Of a DNA stretch of 40,677 nt, positions 8,222 to 40,277 are shown piece after piece. The stretch lies in contig JBKJOH010000338.1 of assembly GCA_046593295.1 (NCBI GenBank), positions 1-40,677 of the forward strand, written 5' to 3'. Within the stretch, counting starts at the first letter, position 1; each line of letters starts with the position of its first letter. Source of the stretch: Polaromonas sp. GTDB taxonomy: Bacteria; Pseudomonadota; Gammaproteobacteria; Burkholderiales; Burkholderiaceae_C. The notes beneath the pieces were generated by a model that saw only the letters and a program-made list of their open reading frames with translations, had not been told where the DNA came from and searched no databases. The position numbers and the translations under genes were made by a program.

Positions 8222-8273
8222 GCTTAAAGCATCTCCCCGCGGCACGCACGTTGACCTAGAGTTTCAATGTCTT

Positions 8274-8297
8274 GTATTCCATACATGTATAGAATAC
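8274..8297 (+). promoter_or_regulatory. Palindromic operator overlapping the -10 box of the HTH gene
   Basis: GTATTCCATACATGTATAGAATAC, a 24 bp palindrome with one mismatched pair. Contains TAGAAT (8290-8295), 7 nt before ATG 8303. Confidence 0.7.
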
Positions 8298-8302
8298 TGG
8301 TC

Positions 8303-9360: not shown

Positions 9361-9579
9361 ACGCATACTCAAAATCAGCTGTTGATGCTATTGCCTCAGT
9401 GGCAGCCAAGGTAAAGCCGCACGCTGGATTTGATAACAGCATTGACCACGTCGTTGCCAGTGCAGAGCTTGATTTGATCCAGCAAATCAGCCGTTGTCTT
9501 GGCCGAAAGCAGCAGGTCACCCGTCACCCAACTGTTGCCCATGACAAGCGAAAACAGATGCTCCCCGCATTGGGCAAGG

Positions 9580-9777
9580 CTGGCCTACGTCTCACGCGGG
9601 GCCATGCTCAAGGTGCGTGGCAAGCTCATGCAGGCTGGCAAGACCGACAAGACGATGTTTGGCGCAATTATGATCGCACTGTCGGTGTTGATATTGACCG
9701 GAGCCGACAAGCCTATGGAGGCATGGTTGGTGGAGCACTCGCCCGCTTGGCTCACGCAACTGACAACCCGGTTTTAA
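9580..9777 (+). pseudogene. 3' remnant of a CcdA-family cytochrome c biogenesis membrane protein
   Basis: LILTGADKPMEAWLVEHSPAWLTQLTTRF* resembles the C-terminus of this family as I recall it. No matching 5' part is visible upstream. Confidence 0.6.
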
Positions 9778-9818
9778 TACGCGCTGCCCCTCAATTTGAA
9801 CCGCCACAAGGAACTAGC

Positions 9819-10547
9819 ATGAACATCAAAGCCATCGCCTTCGACACCGGAGGGACGGTTCTCGACTGGCACTCGGGCGTAAGAGACGTATTTGCGGCCA
9901 TCGGAGCAAAGCATGGCGTGACAAGGGATTGGGCGTCGATTACGAATCAATATCGGCACCTGGCGATGAAGGGCATTGTTGGGCAATCGCAGCCCGACTT
10001 CAACATGGACGACGTTCACTACAGCGTTTTGGATGAGGTGCTCGAGTCCAACGATCTTTCGGTTTTTTCAGAGAACGACCGCAAGTCGATTGCTCAAGCG
10101 TGGCACCAGCTCGCGACGTGGAGCGACTTCGCCCGCCCTCTGCGTGATATCCGAGAGCTGGTTCCGGTGGTTTCCTTCACCATGCTGCCGTTGTCGCTGG
10201 TTGTGGATGTGTCCCGGCTCAACGGCATTTCCTGGGACGCTGTGATCTCCTGCGAAGCCATTGGCTACTACAAACCTGATCCCCGTGCATACCTGCAGGC
10301 CTCGAAATGGCTGGCGCTCGCCCCCGAGGACATTCTGATGGTGGCCTGCCATAACTTTGACCTCAATGCCGCACGGGCATGCGGCTTTAAGACAGCATTT
10401 GTCAGACGCCCCAGAGAGTGGGGCCATGAGCCTCCCCCGGAGCCGATACCCCACCCCGATTGCGACTTTGTCTTCGATGGATTCGACGAGCTGGCAAGGG
10501 CCGTTCGGTCGATTGCAGCCCCAGTTGCAAAAAATCCAGCCATATAG
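9819..10547 (+). CDS. Haloacid dehalogenase type II-like HAD hydrolase
   Basis: IAFDTGGTVLDW, YKPDPRAY, LMVACHNFDL. RBS AAGGA lies before ATG 9819, so the ORF-track extension to 9330 is probably spurious. Confidence 0.9.
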   Translation: MNIKAIAFDTGGTVLDWHSGVRDVFAAIGAKHGVTRDWASITNQYRHLAMKGIVGQSQPDFNMDDVHYSVLDEVLESNDLSVFSENDRKSIAQAWHQLATWSDFARPLRDIRELVPVVSFTMLPLSLVVDVSRLNGISWDAVISCEAIGYYKPDPRAYLQASKWLALAPEDILMVACHNFDLNAARACGFKTAFVRRPREWGHEPPPEPIPHPDCDFVFDGFDELARAVRSIAAPVAKNPAI

Positions 10548-18757: not shown

Positions 18758-18769
18758 TTTTACGCTCCC

Positions 18770-21628: not shown

Positions 21629-24600
21629 ATTAATTCCGCCCTGTCTAGCAAGGATGCGAGGTCTAAATTTATACTGGTCACTGCCCAGTCAGGCTCTTGC
21701 GTGAAGGGGTTGCGAACGTAATGGGGGCCTTCATGGTCGTCGCCGTCGACGATCACGATGGCCAAGATAAATTTGTCGGCTTGGTTGAGCCCATACAGAA
21801 TTTCGTTGCGAGTGACGGTGATGGTCGATTGGCCTTTCGAGCGCCCCTTGACCTCGATGTGGCGGGCTTGCGGAAGCTTGCCTTCATCGACGGGAACAAT
21901 CGCCGTCAAGTCCCACCCGCACTTTTCAGCAGACACGTCGATGACCTGGTGCCCCTTAGCCTCTTCGGCTTTGCGAACGGCAGCCATGGCGACACGCTCG
22001 ACACGCGCGCGGGCTTGGGCATCGGCAGACCACGTTGGGCCTTCGGCTTCGCCTCTTTTCATCGCGATCAGACCTGCGGGTATCACCAGTGCGCCGCCGA
22101 CCACCACCGGCATGCCAGACACCACATGCCGCATGCCTTGCAGGCTTTTTGTGCGCGTTTCGAGGCGGACGGTCAGCTCGTCAATGGTGCGCCTAACGTT
22201 TTCCAACGGCAGGCGGACATCCTTGCCCGCAGACAGATCGGTCTTGAGCTTGTCGTAACGGTCTGACCAGTAGTCGATCTCCTTGACCAGCCGCTCGTGA
22301 ATCGCTGCGAGGTTCTTGTCGATCTGGTGTTCGCGCCTCTGGCGGACTTCCTCAAAGTGCTCGGGCACCAGCTTGTCAGACGAGTGCCCCAAGGCAGCTT
22401 CTTCCAAGTCCTTCTTGATCCAGTCGGCATCTATCTCTGCGGCCACCACCGCGCGCTGATCGGGCTCTATGGGATTGAGGTCCAAGTGCGGCGCCCAGCC
22501 TGCATTGCTGATTTTGCCGTGCCGGTCGATAGTCACGAACTGCAAGCGGCGCGATACAACCAAGCCCGATTCACCGCCCTCCTTGACGGAGTGGTCAATC
22601 AGGAACAGAAGCTTCGGATCGATGCCCTCGTCATTGGGGTCTACCAAGACGGCGCCTTGCTTTAACTTGCCGCGGTGCTGCTCGGTCATCAAATCCACCA
22701 CCGACTGCATCAGGGGATGGGCTGGGTGGATCAGGCTCGCGACGGCCTCGTTGGGCTTGTCATCGACGCGGACCTTGTTCTTCTCAAAACAGACACGTTC
22801 GTATTTCGTCACCACAGGATTCATGCTGCGCCGGTCACGGCCAGAAATCTGGCGGTCGCGCTCGCGAATCGTGGCAGGCACAAAGCTGATCTCGTAGCGG
22901 CCCGAGCCACGCGGGCGCAGGTCGCCACCGAGTCTCTCGAAGGCCTGGGCAAAGAAGGACCGAATGAAATAGGGTTGCAGCTTGCGGGCTTCTGCCTTCT
23001 CCATCTCCTCCTTGAGCGCGAAGAGACGGCGCTCGTCCATAACCTCTTCGGCCAAGGCGTTGCGGCTGATGATCTCGCGCAACTTTTCCGTTTCCATGGC
23101 CGTGCCGACGACTTCGCGCAAGTGTTCTTTGCGCGCAGGGTCCTCTCCGTAGCGGATCGCCTCGATCAGCAAGTCGCGCAAGCTAATGCCATCGAAAACC
23201 TCGCCCAAGATGTCGAACACGCGTCCACCCAACGCCTTGCGCTCGATCTCGATCTTGTCGAAAAGCTTTTGGAACACGTCGCCTTCGCGGGTCTCCGCGG
23301 CAACCATGTTCCACAGGTGGCAAACCTGCGTCTGACCAATGCGGTGAATGCGGCCGAAGCGCTGCTCCAAGCGGTTCGGATTCCACGGCAAGTCGTAGTT
23401 CACCATCAAGTGGGCGTTCTGCAAATTCACGCCTTCGCCCGCCGCATCGGTGGCCAGCAATACGCGGGTGTCCTTGTCGTTGCGGAACAGCTCCTGAACC
23501 TTGCGACGGTCTTCGCGGTGCACGCCGCCATGGATCATCACCACAGCCTCGAACTTGCCCATCAGCCCACGAATGCGGTCAGCCAAATAGTTGAGCGTGT
23601 CGCGGTGCTCGGTGAAAATAATCAGCTTGCGCTGCAAACCATCGGGTCCGCGCATCTCCGGCGTGTTCTGCAAGAGCTCGCGCAGCTCTTCCCACTTTCG
23701 GTCCTGCCCCGAATGGACCAGGGTTTTGGCCTGCTCTTCGAGGTGCCCAAGGGTAAAGACCTCGGCTTCGAGCTCGGCGATGGTCTGGGCCGCCGTGGCC
23801 TGATCGACCACCTCTTCCTCGAACTCCTCGTAGTCCTCAGGGGCCATGTCATCGGCTGAGTCCCAAATGTCCTCGGACGCTTTACTGGCATAGGTTTCCG
23901 CCATGGACATGCCGCCGCCACGCTGCTTGACCTTTTCTTCCTCGATGCGACGCTTCAACTTTTCGCGGCGACGCTTCAAGGATTGATAGATCGCCTCGGG
24001 GCTTGAGGCCAATCGGCGCTGCAATGCCGTCAAGGCGAAGCCGACCGTGCCCTTGCGCTTGCCATCGAGTTTGTCGGCCCGATTCATCTCTTCTTTGACG
24101 TAGGTCGTCACGTCGTTGTAGAGCTGCGCCTCGGCCTCCGACAGCTTGTAGTTTGCGGTGTAGGCCCTGCGCTCAGGAAAGAGGCGAGTGCCGTCAAACT
24201 TCAACAGGTCTTCCTTGACCATGCGCCGCATGAGGTCCGTGACATCGACCTTGTGCGCGCCGTCGCGGAATTTTCCGTAGAAGCGGTCCGAGTCCAGCAG
24301 CGACATGAAAAGCTGAAAGTCTTCTTCCTTGCCGTTGTGCGGCGTAGCCGTCATCAGCAGGAAGTGGCGCGTGACCGAGCCTAAGAGCTGGCCCAGCTTA
24401 AAACGCTTGGTCTCATTGATCTTGGTGCCATACCAAGTGGCGGAAAGCTTGTGGGCCTCGTCAACGACGATCAAGTCCCAGTGCGAATTGCGAATCTTTT
24501 CTTGAAGCTCTTCGCTGCGTGAAAGCTGATCGAGCCGTGCCACGAGCAAGTCGTGGTCGTCAAACGCGTTTCCGTTGCGGCTTTGGTCCATGAGGTCGCG

Positions 24601-25146
24601 GCTGAACAGCGAGAAGGACAGCCCGAACTTCTCGAACATTTCATCCTGCCACTGCTCCACCAGGCTCCCTGGCGACACGATCAAAATACGCTGAGCGTCC
24701 GCTCGCATGAGCAGCTCGCGAATCAGCAGGCCCGCCATGATGGTCTTGCCTGCTCCTGGATCGTCGGCCAGCACATATCGAAGTGGCTGCCGTGGCAGCA
24801 TGGACTCATAGACAGCGGTGATCTGATGCGGAAGCGGCTCCACGTTGGACGTGTGGACCGCCATCATTGGGTCGAACAGGTGCGCGAGGTTGATCCGATA
24901 TGCCTCGGCAGCGAGCTTGAAGTCCGCGCCGTCTGCGTCAAAGCTCCAAGGACGCCCAACCGACGCAATGCTCAGTTCGGATTCGTTCGAGCGGAAGAGC
25001 ACCCGCTCGCCTAGGCGGCCGTCGTCAGCCTTGTAGACGACGGTGACAGCGTTATCACCCAACGGGTCGGCGCTTACCACTCGGACGACTCGTCCCTCCT
25101 CAATGCCAGAGACCAACGCTCCTTTGGCGATGGATTCGAGTTTCAT
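21625..25146 (-). CDS. SNF2-family helicase with C-terminal DUF3883 nuclease-like domain
   Basis: [40 protein letters not shown]-terminal GWDL...IEVKG...TRNE. Confidence 0.92.
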
Positions 25147-26069
25147 TTTTTGTCCCCTGATTTATTGCTTCCGGACGCGTAGGTGGTCGCGGCAATGTCG
25201 GCCTCAAAGCCTGGTGCCAAAGCGGCACTTTCGACGCCATAGAGCGCCTGAGGGTTGCGCAGCCAAAGGTGATGTGAGGATGGATCAAGTTTGTGATGCA
25301 GGCTTGAATCGACTGACCAGCGCCGAAGAACGTAACCCGCAAGAGCCGCACGCGCTTTGACCTTCAAGACGCCCTCGGTCAATCCGTAATCCGCCTCGAC
25401 CGCCTTGGGCTGTTTGATGCCAGGGTGAGCCACCAGCTCCATGTCCACCATCCGCGCCCACTGCTCATCGGCAGGCAGCAGCTCGGTTTCGGACACGTCT
25501 CCCTCGATCTCATGAGCCTTCGCGATGCGAGTCAAAACAAAGTCGCTGAAACGGCTCCGTTCTCGGTCAAAAGATCGCACATGCCAACGCAGGCCGTTAT
25601 CTGCTAACGCAACAGGCACGATCTCGCGCTTCTTTGGACCTGACGACAGCGACAGATAACTCACGCGAACAGCCTTCTTCGCACACATGGACCGAGTGAG
25701 GGTGCCGAGCACTTCCATGTCGGGCTGCACGAACTGGCCAGGACCTTCGCACGGTGCCGCTTGCTTCAAACCAAGATCTAGGCCATCGCCAAAACCTTGC
25801 AAGAGCCACGCGAGAACGCGCTCAGAATGAAATTCATTGACAGGCCTGAAAGATGCGCTCGGCCGGTAACAACGTGAAGCTTGGTCATAGTCAAGATTGT
25901 CCGGCGCGACTTCTCTATACAGACTCAGGTCGCGGGATGCTGCTGCTGGCTTGATGCCAAACCTTGCCTCGATGTCGCCCCTGCGGAGCTCACCTGTGAA
26001 GAACGCGCGCAGCTCCAAAAACGCGAGTCGCTCGCGCTGGTTCTGCGAAACATCCAGTGTCTTGACCAA
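25143..26069 (-). CDS. WYL-domain transcriptional regulator (BrxR/CapW-like)
   Basis: wHTH ([15 protein letters not shown]) and WYL (YLSLSSG...RWHVRSFDR...FSDFVLTRI). Start uncertain: TTG 26069 follows an AAGGGG RBS, while the ORF track gives 26108. Confidence 0.88.
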
Positions 26070-26260
26070 GAGCCCCTTTCTCGGGCCTCTCGCCCGTCGG
26101 CGAAGCAAGGAATGCGCCGATCAGAAAGAGAATACCACACTCATCATTTTGATTCGGGCTTTTTTGGCCGAGGTTCAGCCCAATTTCTCAGCTAGAACAC
26201 CAAAAAATCTCGCGGGTCGAAACTTGACTTATCGGGACCAAAGTGCCTCATAAAAAATGT

Positions 26261-27268
26261 TTATCGCGGCCCAACTTTACGTTTTGCAGCAACCTTAATT
26301 GCAGGTTCATTGGCAGGTGGTGTATCTACTGAAACCTTATGTGAATCAAATTTTGGGGCAGCCACATGATCCAAATAGTCACAAGTTCTCTGAGCCGCTG
26401 CTGCTGCCTTGAAAATCGCACTCTTGTCGTCCTTCAATGCCTGCATCCATGAAGCCAAATACGCCGAATGCTGCTGGATGTGATCTTCACCGAGCTTGAC
26501 CCCATTGAGGCCGGAACACATCATCGCTGCGCTCCATTCTGCGACCAACTCCTCCATCGCACGTTCGCGCAAAGTCAACTGAGACATACCAAACCGCGCT
26601 AGCCTCTTGGGTGCGCCGACTGAATGGGCAATTTCATGAAGCAAGGTTCCGTAATAATTTGCCTCTGTGTCCTTCGCATCCACGCCTTTGAACGATGACA
26701 TTGGTGGCATGCGGATCAGGTCAAGGCGCGGCAAGAAGCATGGCTCGAACGGCCCCTCGGCAATTTTCAATCCGGATTCCTTCATCGCAGTAACGATGGT
26801 GCCAACAGCAGCGACCGGCGCGACATCTGGCTTGTCGTTAACGATGGCTGGCAGTCCTGGCGGCTGCAACTGAGATGCATGGAAAACCGCATAGGTTTTC
26901 ATGACCAGATATTTCCCGTCCTCTTCTGCAACCACCTCGCCATCCGTCGCCTTGTCCGCCTGACGCCGGTTCACTTCGACCATACGGATGATGCGCGCGG
27001 CAGCATGCTCACCTTTGCGAATGAACAAGCCCATTTCATTGGCCTGAGCCCCGGTGATGAATCTGTTGTCGCTTGCATAGTCGGCGTTCTCGAACATTGC
27101 CATTCCCAAAATCAGGCTGTTGATGCCTGAATAAGGCTTCTCCGTTTTCGCATTTTTTGGGCGCGACGAAGTGGATGACCATGCCTTTCGCCATGGCACG
27201 GTGCCAGCCTCCATGTAGGCCAGCACGCGGTTCGTAATATCTTGTCGCACATCTGGTTTTGCGTCCAT
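26261..27268 (-). CDS. ardC: ArdC-family ssDNA-binding antirestriction protein (DUF1738 + zincin-like domain)
   Basis: PWRKAW, YSGIN, IRKGE, YYGTLLHEIAH, EELVAE, AYLASW...LKDDK. Confidence 0.88.
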   Translation of the reverse strand: MDAKPDVRQDITNRVLAYMEAGTVPWRKAWSSTSSRPKNAKTEKPYSGINSLILGMAMFENADYASDNRFITGAQANEMGLFIRKGEHAAARIIRMVEVNRRQADKATDGEVVAEEDGKYLVMKTYAVFHASQLQPPGLPAIVNDKPDVAPVAAVGTIVTAMKESGLKIAEGPFEPCFLPRLDLIRMPPMSSFKGVDAKDTEANYYGTLLHEIAHSVGAPKRLARFGMSQLTLRERAMEELVAEWSAAMMCSGLNGVKLGEDHIQQHSAYLASWMQALKDDKSAIFKAAAAAQRTCDYLDHVAAPKFDSHKVSVDTPPANEPAIKVAAKRKVGPR

Positions 27269-27349
27269 GGTGGCCCCCATATAAATTGCATAAGGCCACC
27301 CTCTCAAAGCGAATGGGCAGTGTCGAGGCCGAATGTCCGATGGAGCCGC

Positions 27350-28303
27350 TCAGAGCGCCACACCACGTCTGCGTCTGGCCGTCTGTTCCGCGCGCAGTAT
27401 GGCAACCCTTCTGGCACCGCCATCGCGCAATTCACGGTCAACGGCACGCGGGGTCGGTTCGATGGAAAAGTCCGCCTCCACCGCCTGCACTGCCTGCTCA
27501 AACTTCTCGGGGCTGTGCGCGGCAGCAACCCAACGGCGAAACATGGCGCCACTTTCGGGCTGGTCAATCCAGCCGAATTCAGATCGGCTCGTGCGCAACC
27601 GCTCCTTGATCACTTCGACCGTCAGGATATTGGCTGTTGCTGCGCCGGGTTCATGGGCGCTGGTTTCCACAAGAGGTTTCAAAAAGTCGTCCGCGACCGA
27701 GTCGCGGGCGGCAGCGGTCCCATGGACCGCTGCGAGATTACTGATGTCAGTATGAAAATCGTATTGATCTCCTTTGGAGATCGTCATTACTGATAGAGAG
27801 GGTGGCGATGGCTCATAAGTCCGCGTGGCTATTGGGTTTCCAAAGGAATCGGATGTCACGTCGTTTGGCAACTTCAAAGGCCCACTGTTCTCTTCTGCCT
27901 TGGCTACTTGCCGTAATTTAAGGGCGGTCTTCTTGCAGATGGGCGACATCGGCAAAGCGAAGCGCAAGCCCTTGGTGGGGTGGTTTTCAATTTCACTCAC
28001 AAGGCCCGCATCGTGCAGCTTCATGAGCACGCGGCAAGCCTCCTTGGCATTCATGGTGTCTGCCGCTCGGCCTTGCGTGGTCGGCACCGTGATCAGGTCT
28101 GCCAGAAACTGGAATGTGATCACGCGCCTACCAAAATGCTTCACTTCGCCGGTCTTGAACGATGCCAGCCATTTCAGTTCGGGATACAAGACGCGCTCGC
28201 GCAGGCCCAAAGTTCGCAAAATATCCCGCTCGTCGCGGTCCATGCTCATGTAGGCCTCTTTCGCGGCGGGTGTTGCTGCGGGCTTAGGGTGGGTTGGCTT
28301 CAT
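27350..28303 (-). CDS. Hypothetical protein of the mobilization operon, possibly DNA-binding or replication-related
   Basis: 317 aa ORF directly after the relaxase with RBS AAGGAG. The N-terminal half looks winged-helix-like; no family recognised. Confidence 0.55.
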   Translation of the reverse strand: MKPTHPKPAATPAAKEAYMSMDRDERDILRTLGLRERVLYPELKWLASFKTGEVKHFGRRVITFQFLADLITVPTTQGRAADTMNAKEACRVLMKLHDAGLVSEIENHPTKGLRFALPMSPICKKTALKLRQVAKAEENSGPLKLPNDVTSDSFGNPIATRTYEPSPPSLSVMTISKGDQYDFHTDISNLAAVHGTAAARDSVADDFLKPLVETSAHEPGAATANILTVEVIKERLRTSRSEFGWIDQPESGAMFRRWVAAAHSPEKFEQAVQAVEADFSIEPTPRAVDRELRDGGARRVAILRAEQTARRRRGVAL

Positions 28304-28330
28304 ATGTCTCCTTTCTGGTCGTTGGGTGGT

Positions 28331-29635
28331 TCAAGGGTGTTTAGGTGCCTTGGGGCGGCTCGGGTCGTTGTCGTTCGATCCGGAGCCATCCGGTCCCTGC
28401 TGGCGTCTAAGCGCAAGCTTTGTCGCCAAATTGGTATTGAGTTGGAGAGGCGGCGCAGCGGGCACTAGGGGTGCTGGCTGTGCAGGCTCGGGTTCGAGGA
28501 TGGGCTGATGCGGAAATGGCGGTTCGGCGGGCGGAATTAACGCCATCGGAATCGCCACGGTGCCCATGGCGCCCGCACTCTCCGCAATGATCTGTTCCAG
28601 CATCGTGCGCTGCCCGGCATCGCGGGGATGCACCGGCATACCCTGCGCGATGGCTTCACGCATCGCCATCAGAATGAAGTCATGCGGGCCACTGAACACG
28701 ATGCTGGTCCAGCCGCGCGAGCACGCAAGGGCCACCATGGCTTTGGCGGCGCGCGCGTGGTTCATTTCGTAGGCAGTGAGCCGGTCGCCGTCGTCGTTGA
28801 TGCGCTCTGGGCGTTTCAGATAAATCACGCTGCCGCGCTGGTGGTGATAAATGTGGCTGACGTCGGGGTCCAGCAAATGCCTGACCATTGCGTCATAGCC
28901 GGGTGTTCGAAGGGCGCGCTTTATCTCGCGTCGCTGCTTCTCATTCGGGTTGTCGCCTGCCCATGCCGTCATGATGGTTGCACCATGTGCGAGGGCATAG
29001 GCATGAGTTGCCAGGTGGGTGCCAGTGTTCAACGGCTCCGGTATGAGCGCCTCTAAGGACTGATCCTCGGTTTTTTGGTTGGTTTGCATTCCTTTCTCCT
29101 TGGGATGGGTGGGTATTGACTGCTCGATGGACTGAACAACGTCCGGTGGTTCTGGCTTTCGATCATTCCTGGGTTGGCGCTTTTTCTTGACGAGGTTGAC
29201 GCGGCGTAATCCGAATTGCTCCTCGATGCGGGCAAGGCTTCGCTCTGCTTTGAAGCGGTCATTGCTATCGGGCACCGTCTTGCCATCCGGCCCGATGCGC
29301 AGGCACGCGATGTGGATATGGTCATGGCCCGTGTCGTTGTGCCTGAAAATCACATGGGGACACGACTGGTAGCCGAGGTCTTTCAGAAAGATGTCTGCGA
29401 TACGGTTCCACGCTTCCTCGTCAAGCGGCGGGTCTTCGGGCGCCGCCGACAGCATCAGGTGGGCCACCGCCCGCGACAGGGAGGGACGTAGTTTTCTGAA
29501 CTGTCCGAACTCTTTGGATAGCTGGCGCGGCGTGCGGCCTGCGAGGTTGCCGCCGATGATGACGCGGTGATCGTCATCCATGTTGTAGGATAGAAGGCCC
29601 TCAATGCCGTGGCCCTTGATAATCTTGGAAATCAT
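28331..29635 (-). CDS. MOBP-type relaxase with C-terminal LPD7-like domain
   Basis: N-terminal tyrosine (LLSYN), HLMLS, RHNDTGHDHIHI HUH motif. C-terminal DDGDRL...SRGWTSIVFSG. Confidence 0.88.
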   Translation of the reverse strand: MISKIIKGHGIEGLLSYNMDDDHRVIIGGNLAGRTPRQLSKEFGQFRKLRPSLSRAVAHLMLSAAPEDPPLDEEAWNRIADIFLKDLGYQSCPHVIFRHNDTGHDHIHIACLRIGPDGKTVPDSNDRFKAERSLARIEEQFGLRRVNLVKKKRQPRNDRKPEPPDVVQSIEQSIPTHPKEKGMQTNQKTEDQSLEALIPEPLNTGTHLATHAYALAHGATIMTAWAGDNPNEKQRREIKRALRTPGYDAMVRHLLDPDVSHIYHHQRGSVIYLKRPERINDDGDRLTAYEMNHARAAKAMVALACSRGWTSIVFSGPHDFILMAMREAIAQGMPVHPRDAGQRTMLEQIIAESAGAMGTVAIPMALIPPAEPPFPHQPILEPEPAQPAPLVPAAPPLQLNTNLATKLALRRQQGPDGSGSNDNDPSRPKAPKHP

Positions 29636-30000
29636 GGTCGCCCCCGGTTCTGAGGGGGTTCATCGCCGGTGGCACCGATAAGCTGTAACCGGAGAATGCG
29701 CACCTGCACCGCAAGTTGATTGATGACATCGACATCAATGCCGTGGGCATTGCCTGCGTTGATGGCGGCTGCAATCTGGTTCAGATTGGAGCCGACACGT
29801 GCCAGCTCAGCATATTGACTTCGACTGATTTCCGATGGCGGCTGTTCGATCTTTTTTGTGAGCGCAACACGCCGCAAGAAAGTAGACATCGGTAAACGCG
29901 CCACACGCGCCTTGATCTCTAACGCCGCACGCTCGTCGTCGGTCAGATAGAGGTCAAATTTCTTTCGTAATTCGGCTGCTGAAAGCAGTCTGTTTCCCAT
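29632..30000 (-). CDS. mobC: Relaxosome accessory protein MobC (ribbon-helix-helix)
   Basis: LYLTDDER...MSTFLR and ELARVGSNLNQIA. RBS GGGAG before ATG 30000; 4 bp overlap with the relaxase. Confidence 0.88.
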   Translation of the reverse strand: MGNRLLSAAELRKKFDLYLTDDERAALEIKARVARLPMSTFLRRVALTKKIEQPPSEISRSQYAELARVGSNLNQIAAAINAGNAHGIDVDVINQLAVQVRILRLQLIGATGDEPPQNRGRP

Positions 30001-30030
30001 TTTGATACTCCCCTGCGGAAGGCAGCAAGC

Positions 30031-30075
30031 GCAACCAAACACACCGGCTCGCCGGGGGGTGGTTGCATGTCTTGC
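30031..30075 (+). other. Putative oriT, nick predicted between 30074 and 30075
   Basis: Inverted repeat GCAACCA...CCGGCTCGCCGG...TGGTTGC followed by ATGTCTTG|C. Same layout as the RP4 oriT (inverted repeat, then CTATCCTG|C). Directly upstream of mobC. Confidence 0.75.
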
Positions 30076-30181
30076 TCCTCCCGGTATCTATGTCTTCTCA
30101 AACCGGAGCCTTGAAGTCAAGAACCTGCCAACAAGAGGACGCGGCGCAGGCTTGCAATTGAATGGAAGACGCCGCGCCAGA

Positions 30182-30219
30182 CAACCAAAAAGCCGGCAAT
30201 ACCGGCTTTCGCTTGGTTG
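30182..30219. repeat. Long imperfect hairpin in the oriT intergenic region
   Basis: CAACCAA-AAAGCCGG-caata-CCGGCTTT-cgc-TTGGTTG. Confidence 0.6.
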
Positions 30220-30390
30220 AGACCTTGCTCGGCACCTTGGTGCGTCGGGTGTATACAAAAACATCCAGGCTGGTGAAAGAAAGATTTTGCACACCGACCG
30301 TCGCCAGCCAATTGACAACCGGTAAGCACTTTCAACCCAACAGAGCAGAAACACTACTCAATGCCGGACTTGCACGGTGATTGCGAATAT

Positions 30391-31002
30391 TCAAAGGCGA
30401 TGATTTGCAATAGCACGTTCGCGTTGGACAGGGCGAGATATGGCAACCTCCAATTCACACTTTTGGTGATTGGCGATGAAGCGATTTGCCAAACTGCGGA
30501 CCAGCTCGGCCATTTTCGGAAGGTAGCGACCCGACTCTGCGTCTTCCAATAAATCAAAAGCTGATTTCATATCTCGCGGCTCCATAAGCTGCTCGATCAC
30601 CTGAACAATGCTTTTATGGATCCTGTCATCCTGCGGAAGAGTTTCCATTGAGAGCATCCCACGAAATATCCAATCGATTGCAACCTCAGGCGCAATCTCG
30701 CCAGCCAGCAACATAAGCTTCAACGCACATTGATCTGCGACTTTGTAGGTGGCGGCAACGATGATGCTACCCTGCTGCATGGCTCCCGTCGGAAAACTGA
30801 TGTCGAACACTTGATCGAAAATTGACTCGCCCGACAGTTCCTCAAAAAGTTCAATCTGACTGATAGCAGCCACGACATCGTCGTTTTTAAAGGCTCGGTC
30901 AATTGATGTCAACGCCATCTCGGATTGAGCTCGTTTGACATTAGATTCAGTCGCTCCGCAACCATTTTTAAATTCGCGTTTTTTCCGTGATGCTTTTCCC
31001 AT
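30391..31002 (-). CDS. Hypothetical protein
   Basis: ORF with RBS AAGGA before MGKASRKKR. No family recognised. Confidence 0.55.
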   Translation of the reverse strand: MGKASRKKREFKNGCGATESNVKRAQSEMALTSIDRAFKNDDVVAAISQIELFEELSGESIFDQVFDISFPTGAMQQGSIIVAATYKVADQCALKLMLLAGEIAPEVAIDWIFRGMLSMETLPQDDRIHKSIVQVIEQLMEPRDMKSAFDLLEDAESGRYLPKMAELVRSLANRFIANHQKCELEVAISRPVQRERAIANHRL

Positions 31003-31113
31003 CTTCATTCCTTCTAATAGGCCAATGCGTGGCCATATGTTGAATTCAATCTGCTTGCACGCCAAACGGAGAATTCCGGCGATGCGACTGGCGCGATACG
31101 CACCGATGCCAAA

Positions 31114-31518
31114 TCAGAGAATGTCGGAACGCTCCTTCAACGCCTTCTTTGCGGCGCTGGGTTTGTTCGTCACCAATTCAAATTGGTTGATCCGCTTGAT
31201 GCCTTCCAACGCCATGCCGCAACGGAAAGAAAAGACCTTCTTGATGACGATGCCATCGCGCAGCACATGGACAGTAGTTCTCCACGAACGATGGGGCAGG
31301 CGCTCCTTGGAAGAGAATTCATATTCGTAGACACGAAACTGCTTCTTGTCGAAGTCAGGATGCTTGAATCTTTCGACAGCCGGGACGCCATCGATCCTCA
31401 ACACAATTTCCTCGTCATCGGCGACGGATTCTGAATAATTGAAACTGCTTGCGCGCGACATGGCGATCTTCGCCAATGGGCCTCGCGCCGCCGGACTCTT
31501 GCCTTTGGTAAATGACAT
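31114..31518 (-). CDS. Hypothetical basic protein
   Basis: RBS AAGGAG before ATG 31518 (MSFTKGK). No family recognised. Confidence 0.5.
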   Translation of the reverse strand: MSFTKGKSPAARGPLAKIAMSRASSFNYSESVADDEEIVLRIDGVPAVERFKHPDFDKKQFRVYEYEFSSKERLPHRSWRTTVHVLRDGIVIKKVFSFRCGMALEGIKRINQFELVTNKPSAAKKALKERSDIL

Positions 31519-31737
31519 CTCATCGCTCCTTTGGATTGAACTTCTGCATTTCGGCAGCACGATTGCTGTCAAAGTGTTGGAAGTATCTGCGCGATGAGAG
31601 TTTGGGTTGTCCTACAGTGAGACGAGTGAAGGCAAACGACGGCATGCGACGGCGCGACTTAAATTAATCGCTGCAAATACCGCCTTCAGTGTTGCTTTCA
31701 CACGTCGCGCGGCGGCACATTGCATATGTTTAGGCGC

Positions 31738-31761
31738 AAAAAAAGCCGCCCAGTGGCGGCT
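31738..31761 (-). terminator. Rho-independent terminator after the int/xis-like genes
   Basis: Minus strand reads AGCCGCC-ACTG-GGCGGCT followed by a T-run. Confidence 0.8.
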
Positions 31762-31786
31762 CCTAACTTCCCGTCCGATCAGCCGT

Positions 31787-32428
31787 TCAAGCGCGGGGCT
31801 TCGCGCCTTGAATTGACGCTTCGAGCGCGGCCGTCGCAACGTCGGTGGAATCGATTCCATTTTGAACGCCCCGCAAGGACTTCGTCAGCACGTCCTGGAC
31901 GGACTCGGCGAAATCCCGATGTCGGGACAGGTCGGTCCAGCGGCGCGACGCGGCCTCGACGGGAGTCATCCACAAAATATCCCAGTGCCCTATACGCTCC
32001 ACCACCGTCCCCAGCAGGTTTTCCTCCACCATGGATTCGACGTTGCCCATCTTGTCGAGGTAAAACGCCTCGTGCTCGGCCACATCGAAGAGGGTGGCGA
32101 ACTTTTGCCCCTTGCGAATCGCCGCCTGAGTGGAATCGGACACTTGATTCCCATCCAACCAAGCGATCAAATGCGCTTTTTTGTAGAGGCACATTTGATT
32201 AGTGCCCGCTGCTTTGACGCCGCCACCTTGGCTATATATCGGGCCTCCGCCTTCCTTGCGAAGCCGCTCCAACTTCGTCACCGATGTGCGCAGGAATATC
32301 GCCGCCTCGCTTGTGGTCAACATGACGCTTGGATCGAGCGCGCTGATTGCCGCGAGCACTTCGGTGACCTTCATCACCATCCCGTTGTAACGCGCGTCGG
32401 CTAATAAGTTCTGGGCCATTCCTGCCAT
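31787..32428 (-). CDS. Excisionase-like HTH protein with a long C-terminal extension
   Basis: MLTTSEAAIFLRTSVTKLERLRKEGGGPIY is an HTH_17/AlpA-like pattern. Follows the integrase; RBS GGAG. Confidence 0.75.
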   Translation of the reverse strand: MAGMAQNLLADARYNGMVMKVTEVLAAISALDPSVMLTTSEAAIFLRTSVTKLERLRKEGGGPIYSQGGGVKAAGTNQMCLYKKAHLIAWLDGNQVSDSTQAAIRKGQKFATLFDVAEHEAFYLDKMGNVESMVEENLLGTVVERIGHWDILWMTPVEAASRRWTDLSRHRDFAESVQDVLTKSLRGVQNGIDSTDVATAALEASIQGAKPRA

Positions 32429-32493
32429 GATTTCTCCATATTTAGTAAATTTTTCATCAGCTTACCCGAGAGCCTTGATCCAGCGGCTTTCGC

Positions 32494-34101
32494 CTAGGCG
32501 GCCTCTTTTCGCGGTCGTCCTGTCCTAGGTTTGGGCGGCCGGCACTGATGCGGCTCGATCGGTGGCATGGGCGGCCAGTCTGCGGGCTTCAACGAGTTGT
32601 AGACGTTGGGCGCCCTCGACAAGATCGACTGCTCGATCTTCATCATCCATTCGCGCAGCAAACTCCATTCGGCCTGCGTGTAGACATCGGTCACCGAGGA
32701 ATGCGCGTGGTTTAAGAACCGGCTCTTGATGCTGTCGGGCACCTCCAACGCGGTCATCACCGCGCCAAAGGAGCGTCGCAAGTCGTGTCGGTTGAGGCGC
32801 TCTACACCGATCTCTTCGCGGAGGTCATCGAGCAAATCGGTCGCGTCCGAATAGTGTCCGCTGTTGGACAGCTTGCTGCGGGCCGGGAAAACGAATCTCC
32901 TGGACTTGTCGCCGAATCCTCTTCGAACGGCCTCGGCTGCCGACGCCGCCTGCCGGCGTTTAAGAAGCTCCAAGGTCATGGGCGTGATGGGCATGCGGTG
33001 GTTGCGCCCGTTCTTGGTCTTGTAGAAGAAGACGTAGGGACCCCAGTCGGGATGATCTTTGAGCACGACGTGGCTCGTGGATCGGCGCCCAATCCCCACA
33101 CCTCCCACCTCCGTCAACAGCTCGCCCCAGACCAACCCCGCGTGCTCGCTTTTCCGGCATCCCCAGAGCAGCATCAGCATGAGGTAGTGGACGCCGGTCA
33201 AGTTGTCGTTCATGTCCTTCTTCGACCAGCAGGCCTCCAAGAAACGCCCGAGGTCCTGAGTGGGGCGCAGCGGATTGCGCTTGCCCTTCTCCTCGCGCTC
33301 GGCGTCGATCATTTCCTTGGAGCGGTAGTGCCCGTTGAGGCTAAGCGTGCGAAATGGATTGCCTTTGAGCGTGGGCTCGCGGTTTTGCGCGTCGGCCCGA
33401 ATCTTCTCGTTCTCGATATACCAATCAATCGCCCGCGAGGGCCAGCGGAAAGCTTGCTCGGTGGCAGTCGGCGTCGCGTCCTTGGTTTTTAAAAACTTCT
33501 CGATGATGTCGGCGTCGGAGACCTCGCGCACTTTGCGGTCCGACCATTTCCATTCCTCATGCCGCTTCATCACCCGGTCGTAGACCTTCAAGGTCTCCAC
33601 CTTGGCAGGCTTGACGGTGCGGGTGGTCAGGTGCGCGCGGTAGGCCAGCATCGCCTGCTTCAACGTGACCTCGGCCGCATTGGCTTCCCTGGCGAGAGCG
33701 TTGGGGTTTTGGCCCGTCTCGATCATGGTCCGAGCCAAATTAGCCGCTTTGGCCCGAGCATCCTGTATCTTGTCGAAGTCCGCGACATTGCCGACTTTGG
33801 AGAGCATGGATTTGCCCATGACCTTGCGGCGCAGGATGAAGGTCTTGTTGCCCGCCACTTTGAGGCCGAAGCCCGGCGGAGCGTCGCGGCTGGTGTCCCA
33901 TAAGATGTAGCTTTCGGGCTTGGGGACCGGTTTTTCCGCGAACGTCAACTTGCCATCGGCGCCGTAGCCCACGGGCGGGCGCTCAAGTTTTCGAAGCTTG
34001 CAGTAGTTGTCGTTGAGCTCGGCGCGCCATGCAGGCGCGCGCTTCGACGCTGCGGTCCCCACGGGGGATTCGGATTCTTGGCTCGATTCGTCAAGCTGCA
34101 T
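32494..34101 (-). CDS. Tyrosine recombinase/integrase with N-terminal arm-binding domain
   Basis: Catalytic set GCRKSE, KTKNG, HDLRR, LNH, DVY. N-terminal LWD...PGFGLKV. Confidence 0.93.
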   Translation of the reverse strand: MQLDESSQESESPVGTAASKRAPAWRAELNDNYCKLRKLERPPVGYGADGKLTFAEKPVPKPESYILWDTSRDAPPGFGLKVAGNKTFILRRKVMGKSMLSKVGNVADFDKIQDARAKAANLARTMIETGQNPNALAREANAAEVTLKQAMLAYRAHLTTRTVKPAKVETLKVYDRVMKRHEEWKWSDRKVREVSDADIIEKFLKTKDATPTATEQAFRWPSRAIDWYIENEKIRADAQNREPTLKGNPFRTLSLNGHYRSKEMIDAEREEKGKRNPLRPTQDLGRFLEACWSKKDMNDNLTGVHYLMLMLLWGCRKSEHAGLVWGELLTEVGGVGIGRRSTSHVVLKDHPDWGPYVFFYKTKNGRNHRMPITPMTLELLKRRQAASAAEAVRRGFGDKSRRFVFPARSKLSNSGHYSDATDLLDDLREEIGVERLNRHDLRRSFGAVMTALEVPDSIKSRFLNHAHSSVTDVYTQAEWSLLREWMMKIEQSILSRAPNVYNSLKPADWPPMPPIEPHQCRPPKPRTGRPRKEAA

Positions 34102-36971: not shown

Positions 36972-37025
36972 TAGCCCCAGGTCAATGCCCGCGACGCTCA
37001 ATTCCTCATTACCTCGGTCGGACTC

Positions 37026-37439
37026 ATGCCAGATTTTTTTGCTTCTGCCCAACGCCATCTCGCGGATGGGGACCTGCTCGAAACTCATTCGCGAGCGCCT
37101 AATGCGGTCCAGTTGTGGGGGTACGGAGCTGAATGTGTATTGAAGTTCGTCGCCAGCAAGCAAGGACACTTCACCCTCAGCCCTGCCGGGAAGCCAACCA
37201 ACGGTTTTGATTTGCATGTGAATCAACAAAGAAGTGGACAAACTCTGCTGTCGCTCTATAACGCATTGCAAAGCGGTACCGCCGCCTTGTCTGGACCCGC
37301 CTCAGCTTTTGCAGATTGGAAAGTTGATGCCCGCTATGAAGATGGAACGCAGTTAAATCACATCTCCACCTACAAAGCTGATGCACAGGTTTTTCGCGCT
37401 CTGCTGAGTGCCGCACTGAAACAAGGACTTCTGCCATGA
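37026..37439 (+). CDS. Small HEPN-like protein
   Basis: RHLADG, LWGYGAECVLK, an internal His (DLHV) and DWKVDARY follow the HEPN pattern (GY..E..LK...H...W....RY). Confidence 0.65.
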   Translation: MPDFFASAQRHLADGDLLETHSRAPNAVQLWGYGAECVLKFVASKQGHFTLSPAGKPTNGFDLHVNQQRSGQTLLSLYNALQSGTAALSGPASAFADWKVDARYEDGTQLNHISTYKADAQVFRALLSAALKQGLLP

Positions 37440-38779
37440 CTCTACGTTTTGACGCAGTACTGCGCGAGTTAATTGCATGGCTGAAGATCAATCTTCAAGC
37501 GTTGCCACCAGATGGACGCGTCGTCGCGGTGCGAGACATTCGGGGGCAAGTTCGCCTAATTGTCGAAAGCGCAGACCTCGGGACGTGGAACTCAGAGAAA
37601 GAAACGGAAATCTCACAACGACTGGGAGCCTATCGAGCCGCAGGAGATTTTTTGATTCAGGTCGGCACAGAAAATGGGTTTGATGATTTCTTCAATGCCC
37701 CTGAAGCCTTTTCATCTGCTGAACTTCCCGAAAGAATCAAAATTCTTGACCGATTGATCACCGGCAGAGAATGGCTTTATCCCGTTGGCGGAAAAAGCAA
37801 CCACCCCCCGCGGTTTGTGTTTTTTGGCTTAAAGGGTGGCGTAGGTCGCTCAACCGCCCTTTCCATGGTGGCATGGCACCTAGCACAGCAAGGCAAGAAG
37901 GTACTTGTCATCGATTTGGACCTCGAATCTCCAGGCTTGGGCAACATGCTCTTGCCAGTACGTCAAGACCTGCGAGAAGACGGTGATACCGCACTTCCAG
38001 GCTGGCCCGACTATGGCATGACAGATTGGTTTGTTGAAGATGCAGTAGGCCAAGCGAACGAAGCGTTGTTGAACCAAATGATTCAGCCCAGCCCCATCGA
38101 GGGGTCTGGTCAAGGCGAGATCATCGTCGTGCCCGCAGCGGGAGGTCTGTACGATCAAAATTATGTAAGCAAACTGTCACGATCCTATGCCGACCTGCCA
38201 AACGCTCAAGGAAAAATTGAAGTGTTTGGTGATCGACTAACAAGAGCAATTTCTCAAATTGAAAATCACGTGCAGCCCGACGTTGTGCTACTGGACAGTC
38301 GCGCCGGCATCCACCATATTTCTGCCACTGCGCTGACGCGGCTCGATGCCCGCGTCTATCTGTTCGCCTCTGACAGCGAGCAAACGTGGGCCGGCTTCAA
38401 CGCGCTCTTTTCCCACTGGGCGCTGAAAACCGAAACAATCCGGCAAATCCGAGGCTCGCTACGACTCGTTTCTGCGCTCACGCCTTTCGGCTCAGAAAAA
38501 AAGACATTTCGGGATGCCTACGGCGAACACTCTTTTGACACCTTCGTTCGACTTTATGACGACGGGTCAAACCCAGCGTCTGGCGACGATTTATTCAGTT
38601 TTGGGGTATTTGAAGATGACGCACCACATCGTCCTGTGCTAGTTTGGCAAGACAGCGCATACCTTAATTTCAGCCCTTTGACCAAGACCGTTCAGCTTGA
38701 CACCGAGAAGGCCCAGTTGGTCTTCGAAGAACTATTTACCCGCATTGACCGTGACTTGAACAACAAGGAAAGCTCATGA
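37436..38779 (+). CDS. ParA/MinD-like ATPase with variant Walker A (KGGVGRS)
   Basis: FFGLKGGVGRST, VLVIDLDLESPG, VLLDSRAG, plus an extra ~120 aa N-terminal domain. Confidence 0.85.
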   Translation: MTLRFDAVLRELIAWLKINLQALPPDGRVVAVRDIRGQVRLIVESADLGTWNSEKETEISQRLGAYRAAGDFLIQVGTENGFDDFFNAPEAFSSAELPERIKILDRLITGREWLYPVGGKSNHPPRFVFFGLKGGVGRSTALSMVAWHLAQQGKKVLVIDLDLESPGLGNMLLPVRQDLREDGDTALPGWPDYGMTDWFVEDAVGQANEALLNQMIQPSPIEGSGQGEIIVVPAAGGLYDQNYVSKLSRSYADLPNAQGKIEVFGDRLTRAISQIENHVQPDVVLLDSRAGIHHISATALTRLDARVYLFASDSEQTWAGFNALFSHWALKTETIRQIRGSLRLVSALTPFGSEKKTFRDAYGEHSFDTFVRLYDDGSNPASGDDLFSFGVFEDDAPHRPVLVWQDSAYLNFSPLTKTVQLDTEKAQLVFEELFTRIDRDLNNKESS

Positions 38780-40227
38780 ACGCCTCGGAGATCAGAAACC
38801 TTTTTGAGACTGCCGTACCCGAGGCTGCGCATGCTGAAACAGGACTCGAACTGGGGCATATGTACCTTCCCTCAGGGCATATCAAGGCCATAGCGCTGGA
38901 TCGCCCTATCGTTGTGGGAGATCGAGGAGCTGGAAAAAGTTTCTGGCTGAAAAGCCTTGTCGCCCCTGAGAGACGTCGCCTGATCGGTGAAATTTTTGAT
39001 GTGGCAGCACTATTGACTTGCGATGTCGTCACCGGGTTTGACCCGACCACCATCGGCGACTATCCTGATTCCAAAGTGCTAGCAGACCTGATTCAAAGAG
39101 AGATTGAGCCTGCCGACATCTGGTATACCGTGCTGATTCAGGCCTGCATCCCGGCTGCTATTCCAGATGCAACTATTTCATGGTCAGACAAAATTAAGTG
39201 GGTCAACACGCACGCCGAATCAGTCACAAGTAGACTCCGTGAAAAAAACCAAGCGCTCGTCAAGTCGGGCCGTAGCCTGCTAATCGCCTTTGACGGACTT
39301 GATCGGCTAGCTCCCCAGTGGGAAAATACTGTTTCGCTGGTTCGGGGACTCTTGCAAGCGCAGTTACATTTCGGCCAATATTCTCATCTTCGAACCAAAG
39401 CCTTCATTCGGCCCGACTTGTTTTCAGACTCTGAAATTCGCCGTTTCCCGGATGCCTCAAAGTTAATGTCCCTGGCGGTCAAACTCGAATGGCAAGCCAT
39501 CGATCTCTACGGTTTGATGTGGCAATATGCGGCTAATTCCACGAATAACATATTGAGCACCTCATTTCGTAAATTTTCGGAAACTCACGCCGGATTCCAA
39601 TGGCACTCAAACAATGGTCAGATATTCGTACTAGATGAAAAAATTCGACACAATGAATCAAAGCAGGAATTCCTTTTCCATTTGATTGCAGGAAAAACAA
39701 TGGGAGGAAAGCGAAGCGGCAACACCTGGACATGGTTGCCCAACCACCTCAGTGATGCGAATGGCTACACCAGTCCCAGGAGCTTTTTGGTCGCGCTACG
39801 TTCCGCTGCGGAAGATTCGAAAAAAAGAAAGTTCGTTGGCGCAGAGTACGCGCTACATCCGTCTTCGATCAAGGAGGGGGTATCCAAGGCCTCTGAAGTC
39901 AGGCGGAACGAACTTGAGGAGAATCTTCCGTGGATCACTGACATTTTCGAACCTCTAAGAGGTCTCCCTCTTCCGTCAAGAAAGCAAGACGTCGTAGCCC
40001 GCTGGAAGAAAAGCAAGACTCTTGACAAGATTCTCAATGCAAACGGGTCGAATAAAATTCAAGTCCCTCTCCCTGAGCAAGTTGTCGAAGGAGATTCTGG
40101 CTCTATTCTTCTTGCCTTGGCACAACTGGGATTGTGCCGACTGCTTTCTGATGGGCGGGTAGATTTCCCCGATATTGTCCGGGTCGATGCTGGCATGACG
40201 CGCAAAGGCGGTGTACCGGTCCGATAG
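38776..40227 (+). CDS. P-loop ATPase (Sll1717-like)
   Basis: Walker A VVGDRGAGKS, Walker B LIAFDGLD, FIRPD, SPRSFL, C-terminal PDIVR...RKGG. Confidence 0.75.
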   Translation: MNASEIRNLFETAVPEAAHAETGLELGHMYLPSGHIKAIALDRPIVVGDRGAGKSFWLKSLVAPERRRLIGEIFDVAALLTCDVVTGFDPTTIGDYPDSKVLADLIQREIEPADIWYTVLIQACIPAAIPDATISWSDKIKWVNTHAESVTSRLREKNQALVKSGRSLLIAFDGLDRLAPQWENTVSLVRGLLQAQLHFGQYSHLRTKAFIRPDLFSDSEIRRFPDASKLMSLAVKLEWQAIDLYGLMWQYAANSTNNILSTSFRKFSETHAGFQWHSNNGQIFVLDEKIRHNESKQEFLFHLIAGKTMGGKRSGNTWTWLPNHLSDANGYTSPRSFLVALRSAAEDSKKRKFVGAEYALHPSSIKEGVSKASEVRRNELEENLPWITDIFEPLRGLPLPSRKQDVVARWKKSKTLDKILNANGSNKIQVPLPEQVVEGDSGSILLALAQLGLCRLLSDGRVDFPDIVRVDAGMTRKGGVPVR

Positions 40228-40277
40228 TAGCGCCTGCGTCCGCACAAATTCAGCAGGTAAATAACAGAAAAATCGCA

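What the first reader, a model, noticed from the sequence alone, without database searches (positions are those of the whole stretch)
37026..40227. Candidate undescribed three-gene conflict system: HEPN-like + KGGVGR ParA-like ATPase + P-loop ATPase
Seen: three genes joined by ATGA overlaps (37436-37439, 38776-38779), visibly AT-richer than mutS and anbu, with no mobility gene or terminal repeats. Gene 1 has a HEPN-like pattern. Gene 2 has Arg in place of the Walker A lysine (KGGVGRS), an extra N-terminal domain and no parB partner. Gene 3 has intact Walker A/B motifs and a basic RKGG tail. Known: HEPN domains are often RNase effectors in defence. Inference: an NTP-gated system in which two ATPases control a HEPN effector. 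I cannot match it to a named system. Gene 1 lacks a clear RxxxxH, so its activity is uncertain.
Basis: partly seen in the sequence, partly recalled or inferred. Interest (0 to 1): 0.8.

Follow-up and report, generated by a model that had tools for sequence, protein, structure and literature searches.

The report
Known candidate defence system PDC-M28/HINPO
These three overlapping genes are a real, widespread cassette already catalogued by computation as the candidate anti-virus system PDC-M28 and, very likely, as HINPO; it is predicted, but untested, to use two ATP-binding proteins to control an RNA-cutting toxin, so this copy is an ordinary new member of an unproven family.

Summary
In detail: three ATGA-coupled ORFs (137, 447, 483 aa; GC 0.51 against 0.60/0.59 for mutS/anbu) sit where 26 of 28 congeneric loci have mutS directly followed by anbu. 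The claim 'undescribed' fails. All three proteins hit PADLOC PDC-M28A/B/C (E 7e-21, 4e-121, 4e-137), an untested candidate system. [quoted passage not shown] The order A-B-C is kept in 85 of 95 informative loci from many phyla; 7 of 29 scanned loci lie in or beside BREX, three between pglX and pglZ. Gene 1 has a HEPN fold closest to sacsin and AF0298. It lacks Rx4-6H but keeps invariant E36/K40, H64 and R103-Y104, the pattern of the proposed HEPN-T/AbiV alternative site. I found no experimental test in print. Best model (inferred): the STAND ATPase senses, the ParA-like protein switches, the HEPN cuts RNA. This scan noted the same family earlier in another genome (e1-9989426), which gave the HINPO lead. 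Verdict: new member of a known, unvalidated kind.

The parts
37026..37439 (+). Gene A: PDC-M28A / likely PA-HEPN1; HEPN-fold protein of the HEPN-T/AbiV-like type; predicted RNase effector
   Evidence: PADLOC E 7.2e-21; AlphaFold pLDDT 95.7; best folds sacsin HEPN Z 11.8 and AF0298 Z 11.7; E36, C37, K40, H64, R103, Y104 invariant in 70 of 70
37436..37789 (+). N-terminal domain of gene B (residues 1-118); candidate inactive Pol-beta-type nucleotidyltransferase (iNTase)
   Evidence: Model pLDDT 88.5; top fold match minimal NTase HI0073, Z 4.5, rmsd 3.4, 86 aligned, which is weak; R33 and G37 invariant in 70 of 70
37436..38779 (+). Gene B: PDC-M28B; ParA/MinD-like (SIMIBI) NTPase with KGGVGRS Walker A and DLDLESPG sensor motif
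   Evidence: PADLOC E 4.3e-121; NCBIfam NF047398 186.6 bits, cut-off 90; K133, R138, S139, D160, D162, E164, P166 invariant in 70 of 70
38776..40227 (+). Gene C: PDC-M28C; Sll1717-like, STAND/ORC-CDC6-class P-loop ATPase; predicted sensor
   Evidence: PADLOC E 3.8e-137; NCBIfam NF047389 68.3 bits, under the cut-off of 75; Pfam AAA_16 in 22 of 45 and NACHT in 18 of 45 homologues at E<=0.01; Atlas neighbours of a 70%-identical homologue are ORC-CDC6-like, Sll1717 and nSTAND1 clusters
36972..40277 (.). Whole inserted segment between the mutS stop and the anbu start (about 3.3 kb)
   Evidence: 26 of 28 congeneric mutS loci have anbu within -4 to 82 bp of the mutS stop

Best explanation
This is a horizontally moving three-gene cassette, matching PDC-M28 and very likely HINPO, that likely defends against phages or other invading DNA: the STAND-type ATPase C is predicted to sense the invader, the ParA-like protein B is predicted to act as a nucleotide switch that would hold the HEPN protein A in check, and released A would cut RNA to stop the cell. 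Shown here: the genes, their family matches, the conserved order, the HEPN fold, the invariant residues, the insertion into a normally empty mutS-anbu spacer, and BREX embedding of homologues. Inferred: defence function (guilt by embedding, patchy spread, HEPN plus STAND content); RNase activity through E36/K40, H64 and R103 in a dimer, by analogy with HEPN-T/AbiV; the order of signalling C to B to A; any physical contact between the proteins.
For: All three PADLOC PDC-M28 models hit; PDC systems were defined as untested cassettes embedded in BREX, DISARM or type I RM. Among 29 related loci scanned, 7 have BREX genes within three ORFs, 3 of them (L054, L055, L068) with the triad between pglX and pglZ; one more lies near a DrmD-like helicase. 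The order is conserved in 85 of 95 loci with room, plus 1 with A downstream. In 401 genomes of the phylum the same 15 carry A, full-length B and C; the extra A hit in G070 and extra C hit in G181 are fragments. It is patchy: 4 of 36 congeners, with changing neighbours. It occurs on plasmids (22 records with C; 2 of 2 inspected carry the triad beside a tyrosine recombinase) and 5 of 5 viral contigs found carry all three. B and C share one open frame in 4 of 100 loci. In 4 loci of one genus C is fused to a phosphoesterase plus NACHT module. The invariant polar residues of A fit the alternative HEPN site described in PMC3710099.
Against: No experimental test was found in print. A has no Rx4-6H, and no single histidine closes such a motif across the family (best 31 of 70). 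The 127 neighbour ORFs of 23 genus/phylum loci are mostly housekeeping genes, and no background control was run, so enrichment near defence genes is not shown. A was not found in 7 of 95 loci with room, though at least one of these carries a stop-interrupted A (G133). The nucleotidyltransferase call for the B N-terminus is weak (Z 4.5). Gene C stays under the NCBIfam and Pfam cut-offs and has no solved relative by sequence. The HINPO authors assign the main effector role to ParA.
Confidence: 0.55

Rival explanations
1. It is a defence system, but B is the main effector: C binds invading DNA and nucleates ParA multimers that coat it, the N-terminal domain senses nucleotides, and the HEPN is only a backup (the model of Li, Burroughs and Aravind).
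For: Stated in 10.64898/2026.10.19.760177, sections 22 and 41. B lies next to C in 92 of 95 loci with room, more constantly than A. B and C fuse in 4 of 100 loci.
Against: A is kept in 86 of 95 loci together with B and C, with six invariant residues, which is strong selection for a mere backup. The model is itself untested.
Confidence: 0.22
2. It is a selfish toxin-antitoxin-like addiction or stress module: HEPN toxin, B as antitoxin, C as regulator, with no role against phage.
For: It inserts at many housekeeping sites with no mobility gene of its own and rides plasmids. HEPN plus ParA dyads were proposed as toxin-antitoxin pairs in PMC3710099.
Against: Repeated embedding inside BREX and fusion of C to a NACHT module are typical of immunity; a 480-aa STAND-like partner is not needed for addiction (inference).
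Confidence: 0.15
3. It is a non-conflict module: a ParA/MinD-type positioning or partition system with a non-catalytic, RNA- or nucleotide-binding HEPN protein.
For: B is a ParA/MinD relative. A's closest fold is the sacsin HEPN, which lacks the RNase motif in humans.
Against: No ParB; Walker A lysine replaced by arginine in 70 of 70; found in only 15 of 401 phylum genomes and 0 of 14 control genomes; no fixed neighbours.
Confidence: 0.08

Closest known systems
PDC-M28 (PADLOC-DB 2.0.0 phage defence candidate; Payne et al., bioRxiv 10.1101/2024.01.29.577857)
   Same: Each gene matches its model nearly end to end (A 2-135, B 1-444, C 3-481); three adjacent genes; homologues embedded in BREX.
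   Different: Nothing of substance. This copy is a solo insertion between housekeeping genes. PDC-M28 is not named in the paper's main text (0 hits for M28) and the 145 PDCs are stated to be untested; the supplementary tables could not be seen.
[quoted passage not shown]
   Same: HEPN gene upstream, ParA with an extra N-terminal domain in the middle, STAND/ORC-CDC6 gene downstream, occasional B-C fusion, Arg for the Walker A Lys, PG after sensor-1.
   Different: The paper reports enrichment in multicellular bacteria; the nearest named homologues here are Polaromonas/Burkholderiales, which I recall as unicellular. The iNTase fold is only weakly recovered here. The paper's alignments are in closed supplements, so sequence identity with PA-HEPN1 was not checked.
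HEPN-T (AF0298-type, PF05168) and AbiV HEPN families
   Same: Fold (2hsb Z 11.7); Ex3K motif, a conserved His in the insert after helix 2, and a conserved Arg without the motif His; Pfam HEPN_AbiV in 25 and HEPN in 8 of 128 homologues at E<=0.05.
   Different: HEPN-T pairs with minimal nucleotidyltransferases and AbiV with an RNA antitoxin; here the partners are two P-loop NTPases. Lactococcal AbiV does carry an Rx4-6H needed for its RNase activity; this protein has none.
MAE_18760 HEPN + ParA/Soj dyad (PMC3710099)
   Same: A HEPN gene coupled to a ParA-like ATPase, proposed as toxin and antitoxin.
   Different: That family keeps Rx4-6H and is described as a dyad; this one lacks the motif and has a third, STAND-like gene.

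Membership tests
PDC-M28 | Match to the PDC-M28A, B and C profiles | tested here: met
   E 7.2e-21, 4.3e-121, 3.8e-137, near full length; no other PADLOC family hit at E<=0.1
PDC-M28 | Genes adjacent on one strand | tested here: met
   ATGA overlaps
PDC-M28 | Some members embedded in BREX, DISARM or type I RM | tested here: met
   Between pglX and pglZ in L054, L055, L068 of 29 loci scanned
PDC-M28 | PADLOC's own system rule file (scores, coverage, gene count) | not testable with these tools
   Only the profile library is offered
HINPO | Upstream HEPN-domain gene | tested here: met
   Top structural matches are HEPN domains, Z 11.8/11.7/10.1/10.0, rmsd 2.6-2.7, 104-115 aligned; weak Pfam HEPN hits in homologues. 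For a helical bundle these Z values are moderate, but the known-HEPN rows fill the top of the list.
HINPO | ConB2-type ParA: Arg for the second Walker A Lys, PG after sensor-1 DxD | tested here: met
   KGGVGRS and D160-x-D162-x-E-S-P166-G167; R138 70 of 70, P166 70 of 70, G167 68 of 70; definition read
HINPO | N-terminal inactive Pol-beta nucleotidyltransferase domain on ParA | tested here: inconclusive
   Top match HI0073 minimal NTase Z 4.5, rmsd 3.4, 86 aligned; 8 of 50 rows are nucleotidyltransferase or Pol X/beta-type chains by title, but unrelated alpha/beta folds tie and no Z reaches 5; Foldseek found nothing at E<=0.001
HINPO | Downstream ORC-CDC6/STAND-class NTPase | tested here: met
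   Sequence level only: Sll1717 model E 6.9e-19 but under its cut-off; AAA_16 22 of 45, NACHT 18 of 45; Atlas top cluster for homologue P0017 scores 0.98 with ORC-CDC6-like in 13% of members. Not folded.
HINPO | ParA fused to the STAND gene in some members | tested here: met
   Single open frames hold B and C in L049, L107, L118, L128 of 100 loci
HINPO | Sequence identity with the authors' PA-HEPN1 and example loci; enrichment in multicellular bacteria | not testable with these tools
   bioRxiv supplements are closed and figures are not held
Canonical Rx4-6H HEPN RNases | Conserved Rx4-6H motif | tested here: not met
   None in the window protein; best shared position 31 of 70
HEPN-T/AbiV-like alternative site | Ex3[KR] in helix 2, second His in the insert after helix 2, Arg kept without the motif His | tested here: met
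   E36-x3-K40 in helix 24-45, H64 in the following insert, R103 in helix 100-104, all 70 of 70; definition. Distances in space were not measured.
ParABS / MinCDE | Canonical KGGxGK[ST] and a ParB or MinE partner | tested here: not met
   KGGVGRS; neighbours are a HEPN gene and a STAND-like gene; all ParA/MinD NCBIfam models far below cut-off

The most novel reading that the evidence does not exclude
The cassette is a domesticated MNT-HEPN toxin-antitoxin pair placed under double NTPase control: the HEPN-T-type toxin kept an alternative RNase site, its nucleotidyltransferase antitoxin lost catalysis and became the N-terminal domain of the ParA-like protein, and a STAND sensor flips that ParA to let the toxin go. 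This would explain the 'enigmatic' iNTase of HINPO as a binding antitoxin and not a nucleotide sensor, and would show that a KGGxGR Walker A works as an immune switch.
Probability: 0.25. Interest if true: 0.5.

Novelty: new member of a known kind. Interest (0 to 1): 0.2.

Why it matters
The family is common (455 matching stretches in one GTDB scan) and untested. This report ties two separate names to one cassette, PDC-M28 and HINPO; the HINPO main text does not mention PDC, PADLOC or DefenseFinder. It adds BREX embedding, an empty-site control and a residue-level hypothesis for the HEPN active site, which make a small 3.2-kb cassette ready for a mutant-by-mutant test. The locus itself is an ordinary member, so it carries little surprise.

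Tried and rejected
Complex prediction of B with A gave no answer (score 0.01, mark 0.32); it is used neither for nor against binding. A single-protein scan of genome contigs found nothing and the broad alignment was unusable for patterns; a narrower one worked. Sequence searches of the PDB gave no relative for A or C (four chance rows). Foldseek gave no E<=0.001 hit for A or for the B N-terminus. INPHARED phages: no match to C. No RNA holder was listed, which says nothing on expression. Promoter and terminator matches are at shuffle level (3 against 2.5; 6 against 4.3). No flanking repeats, no tRNA in the window. Paper searches for PDC-M28, Sll1717, KGGVGR (one unrelated hit), variants plus PA-HEPN1/iNTase (only the HINPO preprint is relevant), and HEPN/ParA/Cdc6 with plating terms found no experimental study; the five papers listed were seen as listings only, and subscription journals are largely not searched. 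The DndA/SspA hit at L057 was not counted as defence, as it may be an ordinary cysteine desulfurase. P0152 (1028 aa) looked spurious and was left out with other off-length hits (127 of 150 hits aligned in A2). The idea that the triad belongs to the integrase element upstream was set aside, because mutS lies between them and mutS-anbu is the ancestral junction; whether mutS itself moved with a larger island was not tested.
Full report
Observation. The three ORFs exist as described: A 37026-37439 (137 aa), B 37436-38779 (447 aa), C 38776-40227 (483 aa), on the + strand with ATGA overlaps. GC is 0.51 over the triad against 0.598 for mutS and 0.591 for the anbu fragment; third-position GC is 0.49-0.52 against 0.70 and 0.81. 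The flanking genes are MutS and Anbu. I pulled the mutS 3' end from 41 genomes of the genus. Of 28 loci examined (the own genome and the unpublished G031 left out, ten weaker or split matches not returned as loci), 26 have anbu within -4 to 82 bp of the mutS stop, one is cut short and one has other DNA. The 3.3-kb segment is therefore an insertion. No repeat pair flanks it. Contigs from four DNA runs of three studies carry nearly identical pieces, one running from gene C to 30 bases into anbu; none listed bridges mutS to gene A, and one study may be the window's source.

Family identity. PADLOC gives PDC-M28A (E 7.2e-21), PDC-M28B (4.3e-121) and PDC-M28C (3.8e-137), nearly full length, and nothing else. 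The source paper (10.1101/2024.01.29.577857; passages read; supplements closed) defines PDCs as 145 untested cassettes found embedded in BREX, DISARM or type I RM, and notes that they are less often near other defence systems. NCBIfam names B a KGGVGR-motif ATPase (186.6 bits, cut-off 90) and C a sub-threshold Sll1717-family ATPase (68.3, cut-off 75). I read the abstract, sections 10, 22, 24 and 41 and further passages of that preprint (10.64898/2026.10.19.760177). It describes a ParA with Arg for the Walker A lysine and a PG motif after sensor-1, fused to an inactive Pol-beta nucleotidyltransferase, between a HEPN gene and an ORC-CDC6/STAND gene, sometimes fused to the latter. [quoted passage not shown] Equating the two names is my inference from the matching anatomy; the authors' alignments could not be seen.

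Conservation. C has at least 273 homologues among the candidates scored, and 455 of 511 pattern-matched GTDB stretches were confirmed, of which the best 80 were kept. Over 100 loci with C (7 genus, 16 phylum, 77 GTDB; three duplicates, one fragment and the window removed), 95 had room upstream: 85 have A and B upstream on the same strand, 1 has A downstream, 6 have B only, 2 A only, 1 neither. These loci are the best scorers and kin are not independent. In an even draw of 401 genomes of the phylum, A was found in 16, C in 16 and full-length B in 15, and the same 15 carry all three; three further genomes have only partial B-like hits. In the genus 4 of 36 other genomes have C; 0 of 14 control genomes do. 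Homologues of C occur in 22 plasmid records; the two inspected carry the triad beside a tyrosine recombinase. All 5 IMG/VR contigs found carry it; INPHARED phages gave no match.

Context. Of 485 neighbour ORFs (up to three on each side), I scanned 127 from 23 genus/phylum loci with Pfam and 119 from 29 GTDB loci with PADLOC; 233 from later loci and six others were not scanned in those calls. The first set is mostly housekeeping (recG, uvrA, gatB, gyrB, mreB and others), different in almost every genome. In the second, 7 of 29 loci have BREX genes alongside, three with the triad between pglX and pglZ, and one more lies near a DrmD-like helicase. With no background control this shows repeated embedding, not enrichment. 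B and C share one frame in 4 of 100 loci. In four loci C carries an added phosphoesterase and NACHT module.

Gene A. The model is confident (pLDDT 95.7). Its best matches are HEPN domains: sacsin Z 11.8, AF0298 Z 11.7, TT1696 Z 10.1, ST0689 Z 10.0, rmsd 2.6-2.7. Pfam misses the window protein but gives weak HEPN_AbiV (25 of 128) and HEPN (8 of 128) hits among homologues. There is no Rx4-6H in this protein and none at a fixed place in the family. E36, C37, K40, H64, R103 and Y104 are present in 70 of 70, R10 in 68, H11 and D14 in 66. PMC3710099 (passages) says that AF0298-type HEPN-T and AbiV keep the Arg, lose the motif His, and have a second His in the insert after helix 2 that could form an alternative site; the Ex3[KR] motif lies in helix 2. 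Gene A fits that by position. RNase activity is an inference: lactococcal AbiV is an RNase but uses an Rx4-6H (10.1101/2024.05.05.592566, passages).

Gene B. KGGVGRS occurs in 87 of 96 B hits and KGG[LM]GRS in 4 more, so the arginine is a family trait, not damage. The signature Lys133, DxD (160/162), E164-S-P-G and R289 are kept, which suggests that nucleotide binding is retained (inference from ParA/MinD motifs). Residues 1-118 fold as a small alpha/beta domain (pLDDT 88.5). The top match is the minimal nucleotidyltransferase HI0073, but at Z 4.5 and tied with unrelated folds, so the iNTase call is compatible and unproven here.

Gene C. Walker A GxRGxGK[ST] and Walker B [FY]DxLD are conserved, as are a central H-L-x-D...SP-x-SF block and the terminal R-x-GG. 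Weak NACHT and AAA_16 hits and the Atlas neighbours of homologue P0017 place it with STAND/ORC-CDC6-class NTPases. It was not folded.

Mechanism. I commit to sensor C, switch B, effector A with confidence 0.55, within about 0.77 for a defence role of any wiring. The rival of the HINPO authors makes ParA multimers the main effector (0.22). A pure addiction module (0.15) and a non-conflict role (0.08) follow. A structure at the HEPN-T end of the superfamily beside a possible dead nucleotidyltransferase raises the bolder idea of a relict MNT-HEPN pair in which the dead enzyme is a binding antitoxin (0.25, a sub-case of the first and third readings).

Verdict. My nine paper searches found no bench test; most subscription journals and bioRxiv supplements are outside them. 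New member of a known, unvalidated kind; interest 0.2.

Noticed in passing
window 15860-25146 (-): Complete Hma system: HmaA helicase, HmaB methylase, HmaC ATPase, each with E=0 in PADLOC, preceded by a WYL gene at 25143-26108 and followed by an OLD/AriA-like ABC ATPase at 13476-15443.
   Followed up: partly
window about 26261-34101 (-): Likely integrative mobilizable element upstream of mutS: tyrosine integrase, HTH_17 gene, NikA/MobC-like gene, relaxase with LPD7, ArdC-like gene. Its ends were not mapped; the Hma block may be its cargo.
   Followed up: partly
G000:C291:9035-9387 (+): A second, 30%-identical gene A homologue in the same genome, directly after a uvrA-like ORF and cut by the contig end. 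L010 has a full triad directly after uvrA, so a second cassette may be unassembled.
   Followed up: partly
L043:9607-14979, L044:4478-9802, L045:9157-13143, L046:7515-12590: In four loci from three genomes of one genus, gene C is extended to 1328-1790 aa by a calcineurin-like phosphoesterase and a NACHT domain. The HINPO section read does not mention this variant.
   Followed up: partly
L014, L016: The triad lies inside the gatA-gatB region: between an amidase gene and gatB in L014, and directly before gatB in L016. The nearest homologues L012/L013 sit beside recG, not at mutS-anbu.
   Followed up: no
L038:8655-12142 (-): Gene B is split: a 301-aa front part, with about 375 extra residues ahead of C in an 861-aa ORF; real or a frameshift was not checked.
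   Followed up: no
L064:9332-12079 (-): A second, divergent 915-aa ParA-STAND fusion lies head-on next to a normal triad.
   Followed up: no
window 8267-10547 (+): HTH gene, DUF6036 nucleotidyltransferase and HAD hydrolase in a row; possibly another toxin-antitoxin-like unit.
   Followed up: no
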